The notes: generated by a model not told the origin, from the sequence alone. A DNA stretch of 4,474 nucleotides from a virus (IMGVR_UViG_2740892268_000007); one strand, 5' to 3'; positions 1-4,474 are shown, counted from the stretch's first letter. Numbers and translations are program-made.

Positions 1-39
1 CCCGGCAGCCTTCAGGGAAAAATATCATCAGATGGCTGC

Positions 40-393
40 TTAAAAAAAGAACAAATGGTAGTGTCCGCTATTGCCAGTACACCTCAATTGCTCTGCGGCT
101 TCGCTCAGAGCTGGCGTATGTTCCCGGCCTACTGATTCACACAGGTAATCAACGAAACCGGACACCAGTTTTCGTTCGCGAGGCGTGATCGCCCCACCGA
201 CCGGAGTCCAGTAATCGAAACCCAGTTGCAGGAGTTTGAAAAAACGCTTGTGGAATGCGTAGTTACACACACGCTTAAAGTCTGCGTGTATCCACTCACC
301 TATTTTGATTTGATGCAGAAAATCGCAACTCTCCGGCGTCGCCGGGAGAAGTAATCCGGAAGAGGTTTGTTTGACCAGTTGTATATGTGCCAT
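40..393 (-). CDS. Hypothetical small phage protein (117 aa from ATG; track ORF 40..435 uses an upstream TTG)
   Basis: Open frame on the minus strand ending at TAA 39-37. ATG at 393-391 is preceded by GGAG with a 7-nt spacer (minus strand ccGGAGaaagccgATG), which I prefer over the TTG at 435-433 that overlaps the upstream stop. Four Cys residues; no family recognised. Last gene of the operon within the window. Confidence 0.6.
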   Translation of the reverse strand: MAHIQLVKQTSSGLLLPATPESCDFLHQIKIGEWIHADFKRVCNYAFHKRFFKLLQLGFDYWTPVGGAITPRERKLVSGFVDYLCESVGREHTPALSEAAEQLRCTGNSGHYHLFFF

Positions 394-431
394 CGGCTTT
401 CTCCGGTGGCACGGTGTTACACAGCAGGAGT

Positions 432-719
432 TCAATCCTGCTCAAGATTGTAGATGAGTTTATTCTTCAGCAAAAGCAGAAAACCAGCCTTAAAACCAAT
501 CTCTTTCAAAACCCGTAATGATGTGACAAATTCGTCCTCACGCAAAATAAAACCGTCCGTCAGAAGTCCATTACAAAAATAAAATAACACAGCACCGCTC
601 TTCCTTTGTTGAGATTGCAAACATCTAATGCGGCAATGGCTGACAATCGCTCCATTCTCAACGCGCACAGCATAGAGGCCATTTTCACTAAAAATTTCAC
701 GCAATTCTTCGATTTTCAT
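432..719 (-). CDS. Hypothetical small phage protein (95 aa)
   Basis: ATG at 719-717 preceded by GGAAGGA with an 8-nt spacer on the minus strand; stop TGA 434-432. Hydrophobic/amphipathic C-terminus (FKAGFLLLLKNKLIY). No family recognised. Confidence 0.6.
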   Translation of the reverse strand: MKIEELREIFSENGLYAVRVENGAIVSHCRIRCLQSQQRKSGAVLFYFCNGLLTDGFILREDEFVTSLRVLKEIGFKAGFLLLLKNKLIYNLEQD

Positions 720-800
720 CTTCAGAATCCTTCCAGATAAATAGCTCTCCCCTGTTCGGGGTCCATCCCTCTTCTCCCTGCGCGCTACTTAAGTGAGTCG

Positions 801-828
801 ATTCTATCTGCGAAGGTGCGCGAATCAA
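801..828 (-). promoter_or_regulatory. Candidate sigma70-type promoter for the 95-aa/117-aa gene pair
   Basis: On the minus strand: TTGATT (plus 823-828), 16-nt spacer, TAGAAT (plus 801-806), lying just downstream of the terminator and about 80 nt upstream of the ATG at 719. Hexamer match only; not validated. Confidence 0.25.
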
Positions 829-840
829 ATTCACCGGAAA

Positions 841-893
841 TAAACAACAAAAAACCCGCCGAAACGCTGAGAGATCACAGCGATGGGCGGGTT
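841..893 (-). terminator. Rho-independent terminator (minus-strand orientation), two-tier hairpin plus U-tract
   Basis: Minus-strand RNA: AACCCGCC (plus 853-860) pairs with GGCGGGUU (plus 886-893); an inner stem CGCUG/CAGCG (plus 865-869 / 878-882) has an 8-nt loop; this is followed immediately by UUUUUUGUUGUUUA (plus 841-854). On the plus strand the hairpin is followed by TAAGTG, so it is unidirectional. Confidence 0.5.
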
Positions 894-932
894 AAGTGCG
901 GGTGCGTTGAGGATGCCTGACACATCAGAGGT

Positions 933-960
933 GGGCGGGGATGGGATCAGCTCCCCGCCC
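933..960 (-). other. GC-rich 9-bp hairpin (GGGCGGGGA / TCCCCGCCC, 10-nt loop) enclosing the stop codon of the masked minus-strand ORF
   Basis: Perfect inverted repeat 933-941 / 952-960. The stop TGA (949-947) of the minus-strand frame emerging from the N block lies in the loop. No U-tract follows, so it is not a terminator by itself; it may be an RNA stability or processing element, or an upstream partner of the terminator at 841-893. Confidence 0.4.
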
Positions 961-1264
961 GGTCACTCTTACTTCCTGGNNNNNNNNNNNNNNNNNNNNN
1001 NNNNNNNNNNNNNNNNNNNNNNNNNNNNNNNNNNNNNNNNNNNNNNNNNNNNNNNNNNNNNNNNNNNNNNNNNNNNNNNNNNNNNNNNNNNNNNNNNNNN
1101 NNNNNNNNNNNNNNNNNNNNNNNNNNNNNNNNNNNNNNNNNNNNNNNNNNNNNNNNNNNNNNNNNNNNNNNNNNNNNNNNNNNNNNNNNNNNNNNNNNNN
1201 NNNNNNNNNNNNNNNNNNNNNNNNNNNNNNNNNNTGAAGCAGATAGCCTCAAGCACCCGCAGTC

Positions 1265-1294
1265 ATTCTACTTACCTCGCCAATATGAAATCAA
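1265..1294 (-). promoter_or_regulatory. Candidate promoter directed into the masked block
   Basis: On the minus strand: TTGATT (plus 1289-1294), 18-nt spacer, TAGAAT (plus 1265-1270). These are the same two hexamers as the candidate at 801-828. It sits just downstream of the queH-like stop and points into the N block. Hexamer match only. Confidence 0.2.
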
Positions 1295-1315
1295 TCAGAA
1301 AGGTGCCCCATAAAA

Positions 1316-2002
1316 TCACTCCTTCTCTTCTTTACCGTAGTGGAGTTGACCAATTTTGATAAGAGGGCGTCCCTGAGATTTGCGGTGTAGATTGGTATCG
1401 CGCAGAGAATACACACAGCCACAATATTCCTGCTGATAGAATTTTTCGCGCTTGCTGATTTCAATCATACGGGACGAGCCGCCCTGCTTGCGCCAGTTAT
1501 AATCCCAGTACACCATGCCCGGATAATGCGCGACGGCTCGCCGCCCACAGTCGTTAACCTGCTGCATATTTTTCCAGCGTGAAATGCCCAGTGAACTGCT
1601 GATCACACTGAAACCATTTTCAGCGGCGTACAGCGCTGTCCGCTCAAAACGCATGTCAAAACACATGGTGCAACGGATCCCTCGTTCGGGCTCCCATTCC
1701 ATTCCTTTGGCTCGTTCAAACCAGTTGTCTGTGTCGTAATCAGCATCAATAAACGGCACGCCGTGTTGTTCAGCAAAGCGAATATTCTCATCCTTACGAA
1801 TTAAATACTCTTTCTGAGGATGAATGTTCGGGTTGTAGAAAAAGATGGTGTAGTCGATTCCCGAGGCCTGAAGCGCCTCCATCACCTCACCGGAACATGG
1901 AGCACAGCAAGAGTGCAGTAGTAGTTTGTTTGCCCCGTTTGGGAGCTCCAATTTGGGCCGTTTGAAATCAGCAACTGTCATAAATATGTTTATTGGGGTC
2001 AT
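1316..2002 (-). CDS. queH: QueH-like epoxyqueuosine reductase (DUF208 family, Fe-S, cobalamin-independent)
   Basis: 228-aa ORF with ATG at 2002-2000 (alternative ATG at 1981-1979) and stop TGA 1318-1316. The protein carries [11 protein letters not shown] near the N-terminus, FYNPNIHP...EY...R, RC..C in the middle and [11 protein letters not shown] near the C-terminus, which I recognise from memory as the conserved Cys and aromatic motifs of the QueH/DUF208 family. No obvious SD in front of either ATG. Confidence 0.8.
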
Positions 2003-2149
2003 AAAAATATCAAAGAGTGTAGCATTAGAACGGGGCTATCGGAAACAGATGTGTGACTGCTCCCCGCCCTTTCGGGTGGTCTCCTGATGATTTGAGGGTG
2101 CAGAAATCCCTCCGGTTAAGGATTAAATTTTTAACAGTGCTAAATTTAA

Positions 2150-2506
2150 TTATTCAGTTCTGGATTTTGTCGCCCTGCGTATCCGCGCTTTCGCGTTACG
2201 CTCAATCTGTATCAGCTTTTCTATATTTCTCCGCCTTTCCTGTTCCTCCTGGCGCAATAGCCTTACATCATCTGCCAGTCTGGTTTCTCTTTTTGCCACA
2301 GAGAGCATCCAGTCAAACGGCTCCACAACCGCACCGCAGATTTTACAGCGGACCTGACGCTCTTTTTCGTCAACCCGTACAGAGGCGTGATGGCAATATG
2401 GTCTTTCCGATGGCTCATAAAGAAAATTAACCTGATTACGAGGGTCATCCTCTTTTACCGGAAATAAAACGATATTGCTTAACTCATCTTCTGGTTTTAT
2501 TTCCAT
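2150..2506 (-). CDS. Small zinc-ribbon protein with basic coiled-coil tail, function unknown (118 aa; maximal ORF 2150..2563 is 137 aa)
   Basis: ATG at 2506-2504 is preceded by the purine tract AAGGAGAGGAG (strong RBS). The alternative ATG at 2563-2561 directly abuts the upstream TGA (TGAATG) and has AGGAGG 11 nt upstream. Protein has C-H-H ... C-x-x-C (CHHASVRVDEKERQVRCKIC) followed by an Arg/Glu-rich helical tail. Stop TAA 2152-2150. Confidence 0.65.
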   Translation of the reverse strand: MEIKPEDELSNIVLFPVKEDDPRNQVNFLYEPSERPYCHHASVRVDEKERQVRCKICGAVVEPFDWMLSVAKRETRLADDVRLLRQEEQERRRNIEKLIQIERNAKARIRRATKSRTE

Positions 2507-2563
2507 GCTCCTCTCCTTTGATGCGAATGCCAGCGGTAATTGAAGCCTGATAGCTAATTTCAT

Positions 2564-2986
2564 TCACAGTATCGCCTCCTGAAAATTACCCTGATAGAAA
2601 GCCAGTACACGCTGCATAGCTTCGCTCTTCCGGCACTCGCGACAGATTATATTCAGGCGCCTGTCGTAGCGGCGTATTTCTCCGTCAGGTAATGACCAGA
2701 TAAGGTCCGGATCAACAACAACCGGTTTCCTCACCTTTACTCTCGAGAGTTTTTTGCGGGCGCTTTGCCAGTCCTTGCGAGCCTGTTCAGACGGGAATAA
2801 GCCGTAGCCAGAATTATATACATCACCACTTGCGACCAGTTCTATGCATAAGCGACCGACAGACGCACGACTGATACCTGTTTCATCTGACAACTGCCGA
2901 ATCGTGACCCGACCGTCCTGATGCACGAGTTCCACAATTCGCGTCTTCAGTTCTTCCCGCTGTTCGGGAGTAAAAGGTTTCGCCAT
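2564..2986 (-). CDS. ren: Ren-like winged-helix protein (140 aa)
   Basis: ATG at 2986-2984 preceded by a perfect AGGAGG with a 4-nt spacer, lying 11 nt after the helicase-loader stop. N-terminal HTH (TIRQLSDETGISRASVGRLCIELVASG). C-terminal motif ICRECRKSEAMQRVLAFY resembles, from memory, the lambda Ren C-terminus (...KECRQSAAMKRVLAVY). Its position directly after the helicase-loader gene matches lambda O-P-ren order. About 45 aa longer than lambda Ren. Confidence 0.55.
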   Translation of the reverse strand: MAKPFTPEQREELKTRIVELVHQDGRVTIRQLSDETGISRASVGRLCIELVASGDVYNSGYGLFPSEQARKDWQSARKKLSRVKVRKPVVVDPDLIWSLPDGEIRRYDRRLNIICRECRKSEAMQRVLAFYQGNFQEAIL

Positions 2987-3000
2987 AAATCCTCCTGAAA

Positions 3001-3792
3001 CTACTTAACAACCCTCGAATGGCTAACATTCGGACGCCAGCTCTCCCAGTTAAAATTCACCCAGCGCCCGCCGTTCATGACCATGCGATCCATCACCCGC
3101 TCGCCGAGCAATGTTTTCATCACCTCATAGTTCAGGTTTGTCAGCATCCCCACGCTGCGCATCGACGCTGTCCGGCGATCAACAATCTGGTGCAGCACCA
3201 CCTGCTCGTTTTTCGTCTCGCGCTGAATGCCAATTTCATCAAGAACCAGCAGATCCACTTCGCACAGCTCCCGCAAAAATTTTTCGCCTGACTGCCCGTC
3301 GTCATAGCTGGCGTGCAGGGCGCTCATAACATCAGCCACGGTAACCACAATCACTGTCTGACCGTCTTTCAGCAGGCGATTCCCGATAGCTGCCGCTAAG
3401 TGATTCTTCCCGGTACCAGGTTTTCCGCTGAACGCAAAATTTGTACACCCGGTCATCAGTTCATCGGCGATGGATTTCGCCTGGCTTAACGCGTATCGCT
3501 GGCCGTCGTTCTGNNNNNNNNNNNNNNNNNNNNNNNNNNNNNNNNNNNNNNNNNNNNNNNNNNNNNNNNNNNNNNNNNNNNNNNNNNNNNNNNNNNNNNN
3601 NNNNNNNNNNNNNNNNNNNNNNNNNNNNNNNNNNNNNNNNNNNNNNNNNNNNNNNNNNNNNNNNNNNNNNNNNNNNNNNNNNNNNNNNNNNNNNNNNNNN
3701 NNNNNNNNNNNNNNNNNNNNNNNNNNNNNNNNNNNNNNNNNNNNNNNNNNNNNNNNNNNNNNNNNNNNNNNNNNNNNNNNNNNNNNNNNNNN
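3001..3792 (-). CDS. DnaC/IstB-like AAA+ helicase loader (phage replication protein, YdaV/P-like); true start hidden in N block 3514-3792
   Basis: Visible part has Walker A (FSGKPGTGKNHLAAA), Walker B (DLLVLDEIG) and a C-terminal region typical of DnaC-like prophage proteins; stop TAG 3003-3001. A DnaC-like protein of roughly 245 aa would start inside the mask. The track ORF 3001..3972 (TTG) fuses it to the upstream initiator C-terminal domain through the Ns. Confidence 0.8.
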   Translation of the reverse strand, partial: XXXXXXXXXXXXXXXXXXXXXXXXXXXXXXXXXXXXXXXXXXXXXXXXXXXXXXXXXXXXXXXXXXXXXXXXXXXXXXXXXXXXXXXXXXXXXQNDGQRYALSQAKSIADELMTGCTNFAFSGKPGTGKNHLAAAIGNRLLKDGQTVIVVTVADVMSALHASYDDGQSGEKFLRELCEVDLLVLDEIGIQRETKNEQVVLHQIVDRRTASMRSVGMLTNLNYEVMKTLLGERVMDRMVMNGGRWVNFNWESWRPNVSHSRVVK

Positions 3793-4141
3793 CGCGAACA
3801 GGCCCTGGTATTCATTGGCGATGCTGTGTCGAATCACCTGCTCAGGTGTAAAACCCTGCTGACGGAATTTTTCCAGTTCCCGTATCGCCCCGTTAGCGCC
3901 CTGCTCCGTTCGAATCGGTTTTCGCAATGCCTGTCTGAACCGGACCCACTCATGCCAGAGTGTTTCCGGCAACCAATCGGGCAGCTCAATAGCCTCCGGC
4001 TCGAATTTTTTAGACGCTCGTTTTTGGCGAGGGGGAGATCAGTATTTAGATCTTCCTCTTCCTCTTCCTCTGGTAACGCTTTTTGATCCGTTTGTGTAAC
4101 GCTGGCAGCGTTACCTTTTCGTTTCAGTTCGCGTATTTTTG
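3793..4141 (-). pseudogene. Frameshifted middle and C-terminal portion of the phage replication-initiator gene (acidic linker plus helicase-loader-interaction domain)
   Basis: After the 4142..4405 ORF stops, coding continues without any start codon in the -1 frame (KKRAVTNERVTKIRELKRKGNAASVTQTDQKALPEEEEEEDLNTDLPLAK...), then again in the next -1 frame (KKFEPEAIELPDWLPETLWHEWVRFRQALRKPIRTEQGANGAIRELEKFRQQGFTPEQVIRHSIANEYQGLFA) into the N block. Frame changes coincide with T8 (4167-4174) and T6 (4006-4011) or T5 (4021-4025). This is either a true pseudogene or a homopolymer miscall. Confidence 0.5.
4051..4070. repeat. (TCTTCC)3 hexanucleotide tandem repeat, encoding EEEEEE on the minus strand
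   Basis: Plus strand tcttcc tcttcc tcttcc tc at 4051-4070; minus-strand codons gag gaa gag gaa gag gaa within the initiator linker. Confidence 0.7.
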
Positions 4142-4405
4142 TTACTCGCTCGTTTGTAACCGCCCGTTTTTTTTAGAGCTTTTTCCGTTATGACGTTCAA
4201 AGTTAGGTAGAGAAAGCCCTCCGTCATTTTCGACCAGCCATCCAACCTGAATTAACGCATCAGCAAAACCAGACATAAAAGTGATGCGATCTATTGCACT
4301 TTTTGTAACGCCGCGAGCGTTACAATCTGCATTACCGTCTATCATTTGTTGATCCGCCCATGCCCAGAAGCGAATAACCTGAGGTAGCCTGAGTTTAACG
4401 GACAC
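4142..4405 (-). CDS. N-terminal fragment of the phage replication initiator (replisome-organizer / YdaU-like DNA-binding domain), likely 5'-truncated
   Basis: 87-aa ORF (GTG 4405-4403, stop TAA 4144-4142) ending ...LSLPNFERHNGKSSKK, which resembles the lambda-O-type ...PQNEGKSPKK boundary between DNA-binding domain and linker. The first 9 codons (4380-4405) are encoded by what looks like an IS terminus, so the real N-terminus is probably missing. Confidence 0.5.
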   Translation of the reverse strand: MSVKLRLPQVIRFWAWADQQMIDGNADCNARGVTKSAIDRITFMSGFADALIQVGWLVENDGGLSLPNFERHNGKSSKKNGRLQTSE

Positions 4406-4474
4406 TCCTTCCTGAAATAGAATGGCATCAGAAGGAGCTAATAATGAGCAGAAAAACCCAACGTTACTCTAAAG
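4380..4474 (+). mobile_element. Probable IS3-family insertion sequence, left terminus and start of orfA (continues beyond window)
   Basis: Begins with 5'-TGAGGTAGCC (IS3-family elements characteristically begin 5'-TG). About 64 bp later there is AAGGAG, a 6-nt spacer and ATG (4444-4446) opening a plus-strand ORF MSRKTQRYSK..., which matches the N-terminal pattern of IS3-family OrfA proteins (basic stretch, then R-Y/F-S, usually followed by EFK). The orientation is divergent from, and abutting, the phage operon. Confidence 0.45.
4444..4474 (+). CDS. Partial CDS (first 10 codons): putative IS3-family transposase OrfA N-terminus
   Basis: ATG at 4444 with a near-ideal SD (AAGGAG, 6-nt spacer); reads MSRKTQRYSK and runs off the window. 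Identity inferred from 10 residues plus context only. Confidence 0.4.
   Translation, partial: MSRKTQRYSK

What the first reader, a model, noticed from the sequence alone, without database searches (positions are those of the whole stretch)
933..1294. Masked block is framed like a small moron cassette: promoter-like hexamers, hidden ORF, hairpin over the stop codon, then terminator
The 255-nt N block (980-1234) lies between a promoter-like TTGATT-N18-TAGAAT (1265-1294, minus strand) and a minus-strand reading frame that emerges from the Ns and ends ...PGSKSDRAGS-TGA at 949-947. The stop codon sits in the loop of a perfect 9-bp GC-rich hairpin (933-941 / 952-960), and the intrinsic terminator follows at 841-893. 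Promoter, short ORF (at most about 100 aa) and terminator inserted between operon genes is the classic architecture of an independently expressed phage accessory gene. The content itself is hidden, so only the frame is inferred.
Basis: inference. Interest (0 to 1): 0.45.

Follow-up and report, generated by a model that had tools for sequence, protein, structure and literature searches.

The report
Masked hok/sok toxin–antitoxin cassette in prophage
The masked block hides an ordinary, well-known hok/sok (hokW/sokW-type) small-toxin/antisense-RNA module of a lambda-like prophage, and the promoter, hairpin and terminator seen around it are the known regulatory ends of the hok messenger RNA.

Summary
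The visible features are real: a 255-N block (980-1234), TTGATT-N18-TAGAAT (1294-1265, minus strand), a perfect 9-bp GC hairpin (933-941/952-960), and a terminator (843-893). A viral contig (L003) matches all 3,940 visible bases at 100%. E. coli FDAARGOS_944 (L001) matches at 99.9%. Both carry the same 291 nt where the window has 255 N, so the mask does not preserve length.

The hidden sequence is a hok/sok type I toxin-antitoxin cassette:
- a 51-aa Hok toxin (Pfam HOK_GEF, 81 bits; 50/51 identical to HokW of phages 933W and Sp5);
- an in-frame 70-codon mok leader;
- a Sok antisense RNA gene;

The real stop is TAA at 971-969. The hairpin lies in the 3'UTR. It is the conserved terminal stem of the processed hok mRNA. 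The fbi element (912-900) follows it and pairs with the mRNA 5' end (1258-1247).

The "autonomous cassette/moron" idea is largely right. The ORF and the role given to the hairpin are wrong. Already known; low interest.

The parts
1265..1294 (-). hok promoter-like hexamers: -35 TTGATT (1294-1289), 18-nt spacer, -10 TAGAAT (1270-1265).
   Evidence: Found by the consensus scan. The -10 ends 7 nt upstream of position 1 of the Rfam hok-leader model. TAGAAT is near-invariant across the related loci while the -35 differs with each upstream context. Distant plasmid loci have a -10 at the same distance from the GG(N)GC start. Promoter activity was not tested.
1235..1258 (-). Visible first 24 nt of the hok mRNA. 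The 5'-terminal tac element GGGUGCUUGAGG is 1258-1247, followed by the start of the 5' hairpin.
   Evidence: RF01794 model position 1 aligns to L001 4195, which is window 1258. In the MFE fold of the full-length mRNA, nt 1-12 pair with the fbi element. Column entropy is 0.012 bits.
980..1234 (.). Masked block. It stands for 291 nt holding the rest of the hok leader, the sok gene on the opposite strand, the mok start, the hok SD and hok codons 1-48.
   Evidence: L003 matches all visible bases at 100% and L001 at 99.9%. Their sequences for the hidden block are identical to each other.
1135..1207 (+). Sok-like antisense RNA gene, about 73 nt. It is hidden; coordinates are counted from the high edge of the mask (L001 4072-4144). 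A weak promoter-like TTGCCT-N17-TAACCT lies at about 1102-1130 (+).
   Evidence: It aligns with the annotated 71-nt SokW misc_RNA of phage 933W. It folds into a long stem-loop followed by UUUU, -30.3 kcal/mol. The strict promoter scan did not find its promoter. Expression was not tested.
969..1088 (-). hok CDS: 51 aa, really 156 nt (L001 3870-4025). Only 969-979 is visible (..AGG AAG TAA; stop TAA = 971-969). The start codon lies in the mask, at about 1086-1088 counted from the high edge. The in-frame mok leader ORF (70 codons) starts 57 nt further upstream, at about 1143-1145.
   Evidence: RefSeq annotates hokD here. ORF list and translation. Pfam HOK_GEF 81 bits against a cutoff of 22. 98% identical to HokW. 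phrog_251, E = 1e-32.
933..960 (-). GC-rich stem-loop in the hok 3'UTR (9 bp, 10-nt loop), 8 nt after the stop. It is the terminal stem of the 3'-processed hok mRNA.
   Evidence: It is kept in 49 of 50 variants, with compensatory stem changes such as GGCGGGAGA/TCTCCCGCC versus GGCGAGGGA/TCCCTCGCC. It is present with quite different sequences in distant plasmid hok loci. In R1, 19 of 22 loss-of-function 3'UTR substitutions break a CG pair of this stem (PMC9841398).
913..926 (-). 3'UTR segment GAUGUGUCAGGCAU. In the full-length fold it is predicted to pair with the mok start / Sok-target region.
   Evidence: Helix 6 of the MFE fold, 87% of cells paired across 50 variants. The pairing is lost when the 3' end is removed in silico. 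Prediction only.
900..912 (-). fbi (fold-back inhibitory) element CCUCAACGCACCC, complementary to the mRNA 5' end (12 bp with one bulge).
   Evidence: MFE fold of the 449-nt mRNA (-191.5 kcal/mol, z = -9.4) closes nt 1-12 on this element. 97.7% of cells are paired in 50 variants. There is a compensatory U-A to C-G change between hokW- or pHCM1-type and R1-type loci.
843..893 (-). Intrinsic terminator of the hok mRNA: an extended hairpin (arms 853-860/886-893, with inner CGCUG/CAGCG pairs) followed by a U-run.
   Evidence: Most relatives have a shorter CCCGCUUCGGCGGG-U6 version. 30 of 74 loci, including 933W, lack a T-run within 70 nt after fbi.

Best explanation
The masked block and its visible flanks (window about 843-1294, minus strand) form one complete hok/sok-family type I toxin-antitoxin cassette of the hokW/sokW (hokD-like) subtype. 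It sits in a lambdoid prophage fragment between a queH-like gene and a rem-like gene.

How it most likely works, by homology with R1 hok/sok and Sp5 hokW/sokW:
1. A weak constitutive promoter (1294-1265) makes a hok mRNA of about 449 nt, starting at 1258 and ending at the terminator (843-893).
2. In the full-length RNA the 5' end (tac, 1258-1247) pairs with the 3' fbi element (912-900). A neighbouring 3'UTR segment covers the mok start. The RNA is therefore neither translated nor bound by Sok.
3. Slow 3'-exonucleolytic trimming removes the terminator and fbi and stops at the GC stem-loop (960-933).
4. The 5' region then refolds and exposes the mok ribosome-binding site and the Sok target.
5. 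While the short-lived Sok RNA is made (opposite strand, inside the mask), it pairs with the leader and the duplex is destroyed by RNase III.
6. When Sok supply stops, mok is translated, hok is translated by coupling, and the 51-aa membrane peptide Hok kills or lyses the cell.

Shown here: sequence identity, family membership, the predicted folds, conservation and covariation. Inferred: promoter activity, processing, Sok action and toxicity.

The biological payoff in this genome is unresolved. The candidates are retention of the DNA segment (addiction), help with lysis on prophage induction, or exclusion of other phages.
For: - Identity of the hidden sequence: L003 matches all three visible segments at 100% and L001 at 99.9%. 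Both hold the same 291 nt in place of the mask.
- Annotation: RefSeq annotates hokD there.
- Toxin: Pfam HOK_GEF 81 bits; phrog_251 'MokW-like host killing', E = 1e-32; 50/51 residues identical to HokW of 933W and VT2-Sakai.
- Whole locus: 91% nt identity from TSS to fbi with the 933W locus, where mokW, hokW and SokW RNA are annotated.
- Leader RNA: Rfam RF01794 117 bits against a gathering score of 59, starting at window 1258.
- Fold: the full-length mRNA folds at -191.5 kcal/mol, z = -9.4, with tac-fbi closure. Removing the 3' end in silico refolds the 5' end.
- Across 50 variants: 91% of cells paired against about 40% when partners are slid, 20 pairs with changes on both sides, tac-fbi 97.7% paired.
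- The GC hairpin is kept with compensatory changes and is present in distant plasmid loci. Those loci also show a tac-fbi U-A to C-G covariation.
- Mechanism and hairpin role: PMC9841398.
- hokW-sokW shown to be a functional type I TA: PMC8621323.
Against: - The window's own hidden bases cannot be read, and the mask length (255) differs from the 291 nt in the relatives.
- The promoter motif is not above chance on its own and has a suboptimal 18-nt spacer.
- The Sok promoter is only a weak consensus match (TTGCCT-N17-TAACCT) and the scan did not call it.
- tac and fbi are nearly invariant within the close set, so covariation for that helix rests on a few distant loci.
- NCBIfam Hok models score below their curated cutoffs (55 against 73), and PADLOC has no match.
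- The in-silico truncated fold shows the metastable-type local 5' hairpin rather than the published tac/ucb stem.
- No expression or toxicity data exist for this allele.
Confidence: 0.92

Rival explanations
1. The block is a plain protein-coding moron: a promoter at 1265-1294, one ORF of up to about 100 aa running through the mask in the frame ending ...PGSKSDRAGS-TGA (947-949), a hairpin over the stop codon, then a terminator.
For: The visible hexamers, hairpin and terminator exist. With Ns read as X, the ORF list shows an open frame at 947-1252.
Against: In the unmasked sequence that frame has 12 stop codons. The only long minus-strand ORF is the 70-codon mok/hok frame ending at TAA 971-969. 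The hairpin is conserved as an RNA structure in the 3'UTR. The leader matches a curated RNA family.
Confidence: 0.02
2. The cassette is a structurally intact but functionally dead relic. It lies in an IS-bracketed fragment of a decayed prophage, and its promoter variant (a 10-nt deletion that creates an 18-nt spacer) or some other change may have silenced hok, as has happened to several chromosomal hok loci.
For: - The window segment is bounded by two IS3-family copies that cut the neighbouring phage genes.
- The -35 and spacer of this allele differ from relatives that share the queH context.
- Truncated hok cassettes without a leader exist: K-12 Qin hokD and the plasmid loci L091/L092.
Against: - Every element is present and unbroken: the -10, tac, leader, mok, the Sok stem, hok SD, hok ORF, GC stem, fbi and terminator.
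- The toxin differs from the experimentally active HokW by one residue.
- The mRNA fold is far more stable than shuffles, z = -9.4.
Confidence: 0.12
3. The mask hides a shorter variant or something different in the true source, for example a 36-nt deletion that removes part of hok or sok, because the window has 255 N rather than 291.
For: The length mismatch is 255 against 291. Variants with a 21-nt deletion in the Sok stem do exist among the relatives (L050 and L065).
Against: - The second mask is also shorter than the real sequence (279 against 330 nt), while the 3,940 unmasked bases show no gap at all against L003. This points to masks of arbitrary length.
- None of the other matches listed for this stretch has a 255-nt spacing; all are 36-40 nt longer than the window.
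Confidence: 0.04

Closest known systems
hokW-sokW (with mokW) of Stx phages 933W and Sp5 (VT2-Sakai)
   Same: The toxin is 50/51 identical. Nucleotide identity from TSS to fbi is 91%. Both have an in-frame 70-codon mok, the same Sok stem-loop, the same tac and fbi sequences, and a GC stem after the stop. hokW-sokW has been shown experimentally to be a type I TA. After mitomycin C its Sok RNA disappears and HokW is made, and loss of the locus halves Sp5 release (PMC8621323).
   Different: - The genomic site differs. In 933W it lies near the ead/Ea22-like genes and runs without its own terminator into a ygiW/ydeI-like gene. Here it lies between queH and rem and has its own extended terminator.
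- The Sok 5' tail / mok start sequence differs.
- The hairpin loop is 10 nt rather than 4 nt.
- The -35 hexamer and spacer differ.
- The C-terminus is ..ESRK rather than ..ESEK.
hokD (relF) of the Qin cryptic prophage, E. coli K-12
   Same: The cassette is the same from the hok SD through hok, the GC stem, fbi and the terminator, and the downstream neighbour is the same (rem). The BLAST alignment spans about 750 nt at about 80% identity overall, much higher across hok, the GC stem and fbi. RefSeq names the window-type gene hokD.
   Different: In K-12 everything upstream of the hok SD (promoter, tac, leader, mok, sok) is replaced by relBE. The window-type locus keeps the complete regulatory leader.
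hok/sok of plasmid R1 (the prototype)
   Same: The architecture is the same: a -10 about 7 nt before a GG(N)GCUUGAGG 5' end, a structured leader, mok, a Sok antisense RNA, a GC stem directly after the hok stop, then fbi and a terminator. The mechanism is taken from this system (PMC9841398).
   Different: The toxin is only about 44% identical. R1 mok is read in a different frame from hok (my reading of the L089 sequence), whereas here mok is in frame. tac-fbi pairing is shorter in R1 (GGCGCUU/AAGCGCC). R1 is on a plasmid, not in a prophage.
Phage morons (autonomous promoter-gene-terminator insertions in lambdoid phages)
   Same: The cassette has its own promoter-like site and terminator and sits between genes of the early-right/nin region. 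It is found in many unrelated flanking contexts. PHROGs files it in the moron category.
   Different: The cargo is a two-RNA addiction module with antisense control rather than a single protein gene. Some copies lack their own terminator.

Membership tests
hok/sok type I toxin-antitoxin family | A small (about 50 aa) hydrophobic Hok/Gef-family toxin ORF. | tested here: met
   A 51-aa ORF in the unmasked relatives. Pfam PF01848 81 bits against a cutoff of 22. 98% identical to HokW. NCBIfam Hok subfamily models score below their cutoffs (55 against 73).
hok/sok type I toxin-antitoxin family | An overlapping upstream leader ORF (mok) through which hok is translated. | tested here: met
   A 70-codon ORF starts 57 nt upstream of hok and is in frame with it, as in the annotated mokW. 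Translational coupling itself cannot be tested here.
hok/sok type I toxin-antitoxin family | A cis-encoded antisense Sok RNA complementary to the mok translation-initiation region. | tested here: met
   A 73-nt segment on the opposite strand aligns with the annotated 71-nt SokW. It folds as a stem-loop followed by a U tail. Its promoter is only a weak consensus match and its expression was not tested.
hok/sok type I toxin-antitoxin family | The conserved structured hok mRNA leader. | tested here: met
   Rfam RF01794 117 bits (gathering score 59), full-length match 1-157 on the hok strand. The 5' hairpin has 4 covarying pairs.
hok/sok type I toxin-antitoxin family | Long-range tac (5' end) to fbi (3'UTR) pairing that locks the full-length mRNA. 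| tested here: met
   12 bp with one bulge, between window 1258-1247 and 912-900. It is in the MFE fold. 97.7% of cells are paired in 50 variants. There is a U-A to C-G compensatory change against R1-type loci.
hok/sok type I toxin-antitoxin family | A stable GC-rich stem-loop just after the hok stop, forming the 3' end of the processed mRNA. | tested here: met
   Window 933-960. Conserved with compensatory changes in 49 of 50 variants and in distant plasmid loci. Its role is taken from PMC9841398.
hok/sok type I toxin-antitoxin family | Hok is toxic, Sok neutralises it, and the mRNA undergoes 3' processing. | not testable with these tools
   Toxicity and Sok neutralisation were shown for the 98%-identical hokW-sokW (PMC8621323); toxicity, Sok neutralisation and 3' processing were shown for R1 (PMC9841398). 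Nothing was shown for this allele.
Phage moron (autonomous accessory cassette) | Own promoter, active independently of the phage operons. | tested here: inconclusive
   A promoter-like site sits at the right distance from the conserved mRNA 5' end and has a conserved -10. The motif alone is not above chance. No activity data.
Phage moron (autonomous accessory cassette) | Own terminator. | tested here: met
   A hairpin plus U-run at 843-893. This does not hold for all family members: 30 of 74 loci lack a T-run after fbi.
Phage moron (autonomous accessory cassette) | The same cassette is found in different genomic contexts among related phages. | tested here: met
   At least 19 upstream and 13 downstream sequence contexts among 74 loci. 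The location in 933W is different. Among different contexts, homology starts near the -10.

The most novel reading that the evidence does not exclude
The stretch that encodes both the Sok 5' tail and the mok start is by far the most variable part of an otherwise near-invariant cassette: 0.80 bits per column, against 0.11 in the hok CDS and 0.01 in tac. This could reflect diversifying selection that keeps the several hok/sok copies in one genome from cross-neutralising each other. In this genome the cassette could also be acting as the addiction module of a 4.3-kb IS-bracketed, composite-transposon-like fragment rather than of a phage. Neither idea was tested beyond these counts.
Probability: 0.12. 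Interest if true: 0.3.

Novelty: already known. Interest (0 to 1): 0.1.

Why it matters
It matters little for discovery. hok/sok is one of the oldest studied toxin-antitoxin systems. The hokW/sokW subtype has been annotated in Stx phages for decades and was characterised in 2021.

The result is useful as a calibration. A reader working only from the flanks correctly sensed an autonomous small-gene cassette. However, it chose the wrong frame, because Ns were read as open and the mask length is arbitrary. It also read an RNA-regulatory hairpin as covering a stop codon.

The analysis also gives a clean annotation of the visible bases as the hok promoter, tac, terminal stem, fbi and terminator.

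Tried and rejected
- The simple terminator scan missed the hok terminator because of its loop and stem rules. Folding and the inverted-repeat search were used instead.
- The strict promoter scan did not call a Sok promoter.
- PADLOC gave no match to Hok or Mok. NCBIfam Hok models scored below their cutoffs.
- The MAFFT alignment put the GC hairpin out of register, so helix 15 scored only 62% paired. Per-sequence folding was used instead.
- RNAduplex between the 5' and 3' regions gave over-extended, uninformative duplexes. tac and fbi of the distant loci were read directly from the sequences.
- Two of the six plasmid loci fetched (L091, L092) have lost the leader and could not be used for tac-fbi.
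- The in-silico truncated mRNA did not reproduce the published tac/ucb stem. It gave the local 5' hairpin instead.
- I considered a true 36-nt deletion in the window and rejected it, because the second mask is also short while the unmasked sequence has no gaps.

Full report
**1. Observation.** The window has two N blocks, 980-1234 (255 N) and 3514-3792 (279 N). On the minus strand, TTGATT-N18-TAGAAT lies at 1294-1265. A perfect 9-bp inverted repeat, GGGCGGGGA/TCCCCGCCC, lies at 933-941/952-960 with 10 nt between the arms, and no shuffle of the window produced one. A longer hairpin (arms 853-860/886-893) is followed on the minus strand by a U-run. The visible anatomy is therefore as described. 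Two cautions apply. The promoter motif is not above chance on its own, with 4 such sites in the window against 4.1 expected. The open frame through the mask exists only because Ns translate as X.

**2. Recovering the hidden sequence.** Megablast of the flanks against complete E. coli genomes hit 4,478 of 5,426 genomes, and the feature under the gap is annotated hokD or Hok/Gef family. E. coli FDAARGOS_944 (L001) matches window 87-4380 at about 99.9% without gaps in the unmasked parts. An exact-pattern scan of viral contigs found IMGVR_UViG_2671180821_000008 (L003), which matches all three visible segments, 3,940 bases, at 100%. L003 and L001 both carry the same 291 nt where the window has 255 N, and L003 carries 330 nt (L001 the same length) where it has 279 N. 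Both masks are short while the unmasked sequence has no indel, so I conclude that the masks do not preserve length. I do not think the source carries two deletions that happen to sit exactly under the masks.

**3. What is hidden.** On the minus strand the 291 nt contain a 51-aa ORF, MKQQKAMLIALIVICLTVIVTALVTRKDLCEVRIRTGQTEVAVFVDYESRK. An in-frame upstream extension brings it to 70 codons.
- The ORF matches Pfam HOK_GEF at 81 bits against a cutoff of 22.
- It matches PHROG 251, 'MokW-like host killing', at E = 1e-32. PHROGs puts this family in its moron category.
- It is 50/51 identical to HokW of phages 933W and VT2-Sakai (Sp5).
- PADLOC has no model for it. NCBIfam Hok models score below their cutoffs.
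- Rfam RF01794 (named 'sok') matches L001 4195-4020 full-length at 117 bits against a gathering score of 59. The match is on the hok strand; the model consensus begins GGGUGCUUGA and ends at the hok AUG. Position 1 of the model is window 1258.
- In 933W the homologous locus is annotated with mokW (70 aa), hokW (51 aa) and a 71-nt SokW antisense RNA. Our locus aligns to it at 91% from the transcription start to fbi. The Sok segment is included and folds into a long stem-loop with a U tail.

The frame ending ...PGSKSDRAGS-TGA (947-949) has 12 stops once unmasked. The real stop is TAA at 971-969, and the last visible codons are AGG AAG TAA. The TGA in the hairpin loop is accidental. There is no start or RBS near 1250. 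The mRNA begins at 1258, mok starts at mRNA position 114 and hok at 171 (coordinates).

**5. The visible flanks re-read.**
- High side of the mask: the -10 TAGAAT ends 7 nt before the conserved mRNA 5' end GGGUGCUUGAGG (1258-1247).
- Across 50 distinct related loci (82-100% identical; all but L010 homologous in the 5' half) the -10 and the 5' end are nearly invariant, while the -35 changes with each upstream context. In this allele a 10-nt shorter junction brings TTGATT from the queH-proximal flank to -35.
- Low side of the mask, in order: the end of hok, the GC stem-loop (960-933), a segment (926-913) predicted to pair with the mok start, the element CCUCAACGCACCC (912-900), and the terminator (893-843).
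- Folding the 449-nt transcript gives -191.5 kcal/mol, z = -9.4 against shuffles. The first 12 nt pair with 912-900, which is the tac-fbi closure.
- On the 50-sequence alignment, 91% of cells pair against about 40% when partners are slid. Twenty pairs change on both sides, and tac-fbi is 97.7% paired though almost invariant.
- The GC stem is kept in 49 of 50 variants with several compensatory versions.
- Distant plasmid hok loci (R1-type, a Klebsiella type, pHCM1; 37-44% toxin identity) show the same layout: a -10 about 7 nt before a GG(N)GC start, a GC stem of different sequence right after the stop, then fbi and a terminator. They also show a U-A to C-G compensatory change in tac-fbi.

**6. 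Mechanism.** The published model for R1 (PMC9841398) runs as follows. The full-length hok mRNA is locked by tac-fbi, so it is untranslatable and does not bind Sok. Slow 3' trimming yields a truncated RNA that refolds and exposes the mok SD and the Sok target. Sok binding leads to RNase III cleavage. Without Sok, mok translation drives hok translation. In that study 19 of 22 loss-of-function substitutions in the 3'UTR broke a CG pair of the terminal stem of the truncated RNA, which then disappeared, probably through 3'-5' exonucleases. Every element maps onto the window-type locus. Removing the 3' 85 nt in silico refolds the 5' end and frees part of the mok start region, although the predicted fold is the local 5' hairpin rather than the published tac/ucb stem. 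Family membership, folds and conservation are shown here. Promoter activity, processing, Sok action and toxicity are inferred.

**7. Is it a 'moron'?** Largely yes, in the architectural sense.
- The unit occurs in at least 19 upstream and 13 downstream sequence contexts among 74 loci.
- In 933W it sits elsewhere in the genome and lacks its own terminator, running into a ygiW/ydeI-like gene.
- In the K-12 Qin prophage the same cassette, with the same downstream gene rem, has lost everything upstream of the hok SD to relBE.
- Its cargo, however, is a known addiction module with an antisense RNA, not an unknown protein.

**8. Setting in this genome.** In L003 the window segment is bracketed by two direct copies (1,266 nt, 99.8% identical) of an IS3-family element (orfA HTH_Tnp_1, orfB rve). 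These copies cut the DUF1367 gene at window 87 and the ydaU-like replication gene at 4380. Further IS copies lie nearby. The cassette therefore sits in a 4.3-kb prophage remnant. For hokW-sokW in the intact Sp5 prophage, Sok RNA vanishes after mitomycin C and HokW is made. Loss of the locus halves phage release (PMC8621323). The same paper cites R1 hok/sok reducing T4 plating. In an IS-bracketed remnant the lysis-assist role is unlikely to apply. Retention of the segment by addiction, or no current role, are the alternatives, and I could not discriminate between them.

**9. Verdict.** The feature is a new copy of an already known system. Confidence that the hidden block is the hok/sok core is about 0.92. 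Interest is low (0.1). The only mildly novel thread is that the Sok-tail/mok-start segment is the variability hotspot of the cassette. That would fit selection for non-cross-reacting copies, and it is untested.

Noticed in passing
window 980-1234 and 3514-3792: The N masks do not preserve length. 255 N replace 291 nt and 279 N replace 330 nt in the contig that matches every visible base. The second mask hides the start of the ydaV (DnaC-like) gene and the end of the upstream replication gene.
   Followed up: yes
window 1-87 and 4380-4474; L003 7417-8682, 13061-14326, 5034-5746: The window segment is bracketed by two directly repeated IS3-family copies (1,266 nt, 99.8% identical; orfA 100 aa HTH_Tnp_1, orfB 272 aa rve; ends TGAGGT...). 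They truncate the DUF1367 gene and the ydaU-like gene. A third partial copy and an IS110-family transposase lie nearby. This is a composite-transposon-like prophage remnant.
   Followed up: partly
window 801-828 (minus strand): A second TTGATT-N16-TAGAAT promoter-like site lies just downstream of the hok terminator and upstream of the 95-aa ORF at 432-719. That ORF is a homologue of K-12 Rem (phrog_340, no Pfam match). The -10 is conserved in K-12 Qin.
   Followed up: partly
hidden block, mRNA positions about 106-128 (mok start / Sok 5' tail); A1 columns about 174-200: This is the most variable stretch of the whole cassette among 50 variants: 0.80 bits per column, against 0.11 in hok and 0.01 in tac. 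It is both the Sok recognition tail and its target.
   Followed up: partly
window 1316-2002 (minus strand): A full-length epoxyqueuosine reductase QueH homologue (Pfam QueH 220 bits), a tRNA-modification enzyme, sits in the prophage early region directly upstream of hok. No terminator lies between it and the hok promoter.
   Followed up: no
window 849-893 and 933-960 versus relatives (A1): This allele has an unusually large hairpin loop (10 nt against 4 nt). Its terminator is extended by a 23-nt insert that forms extra CGCUG/CAGCG pairs. Only the L004/L005/L010 group shares these features.
   Followed up: no
L091, L092 (Enterobacter and Klebsiella plasmids); L087 (K-12 Qin): In these independent cases the hok cassette has lost its promoter, tac, mok and sok leader to unrelated upstream DNA, while keeping the hok SD, the ORF, the GC stem, fbi and the terminator.
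   Followed up: no
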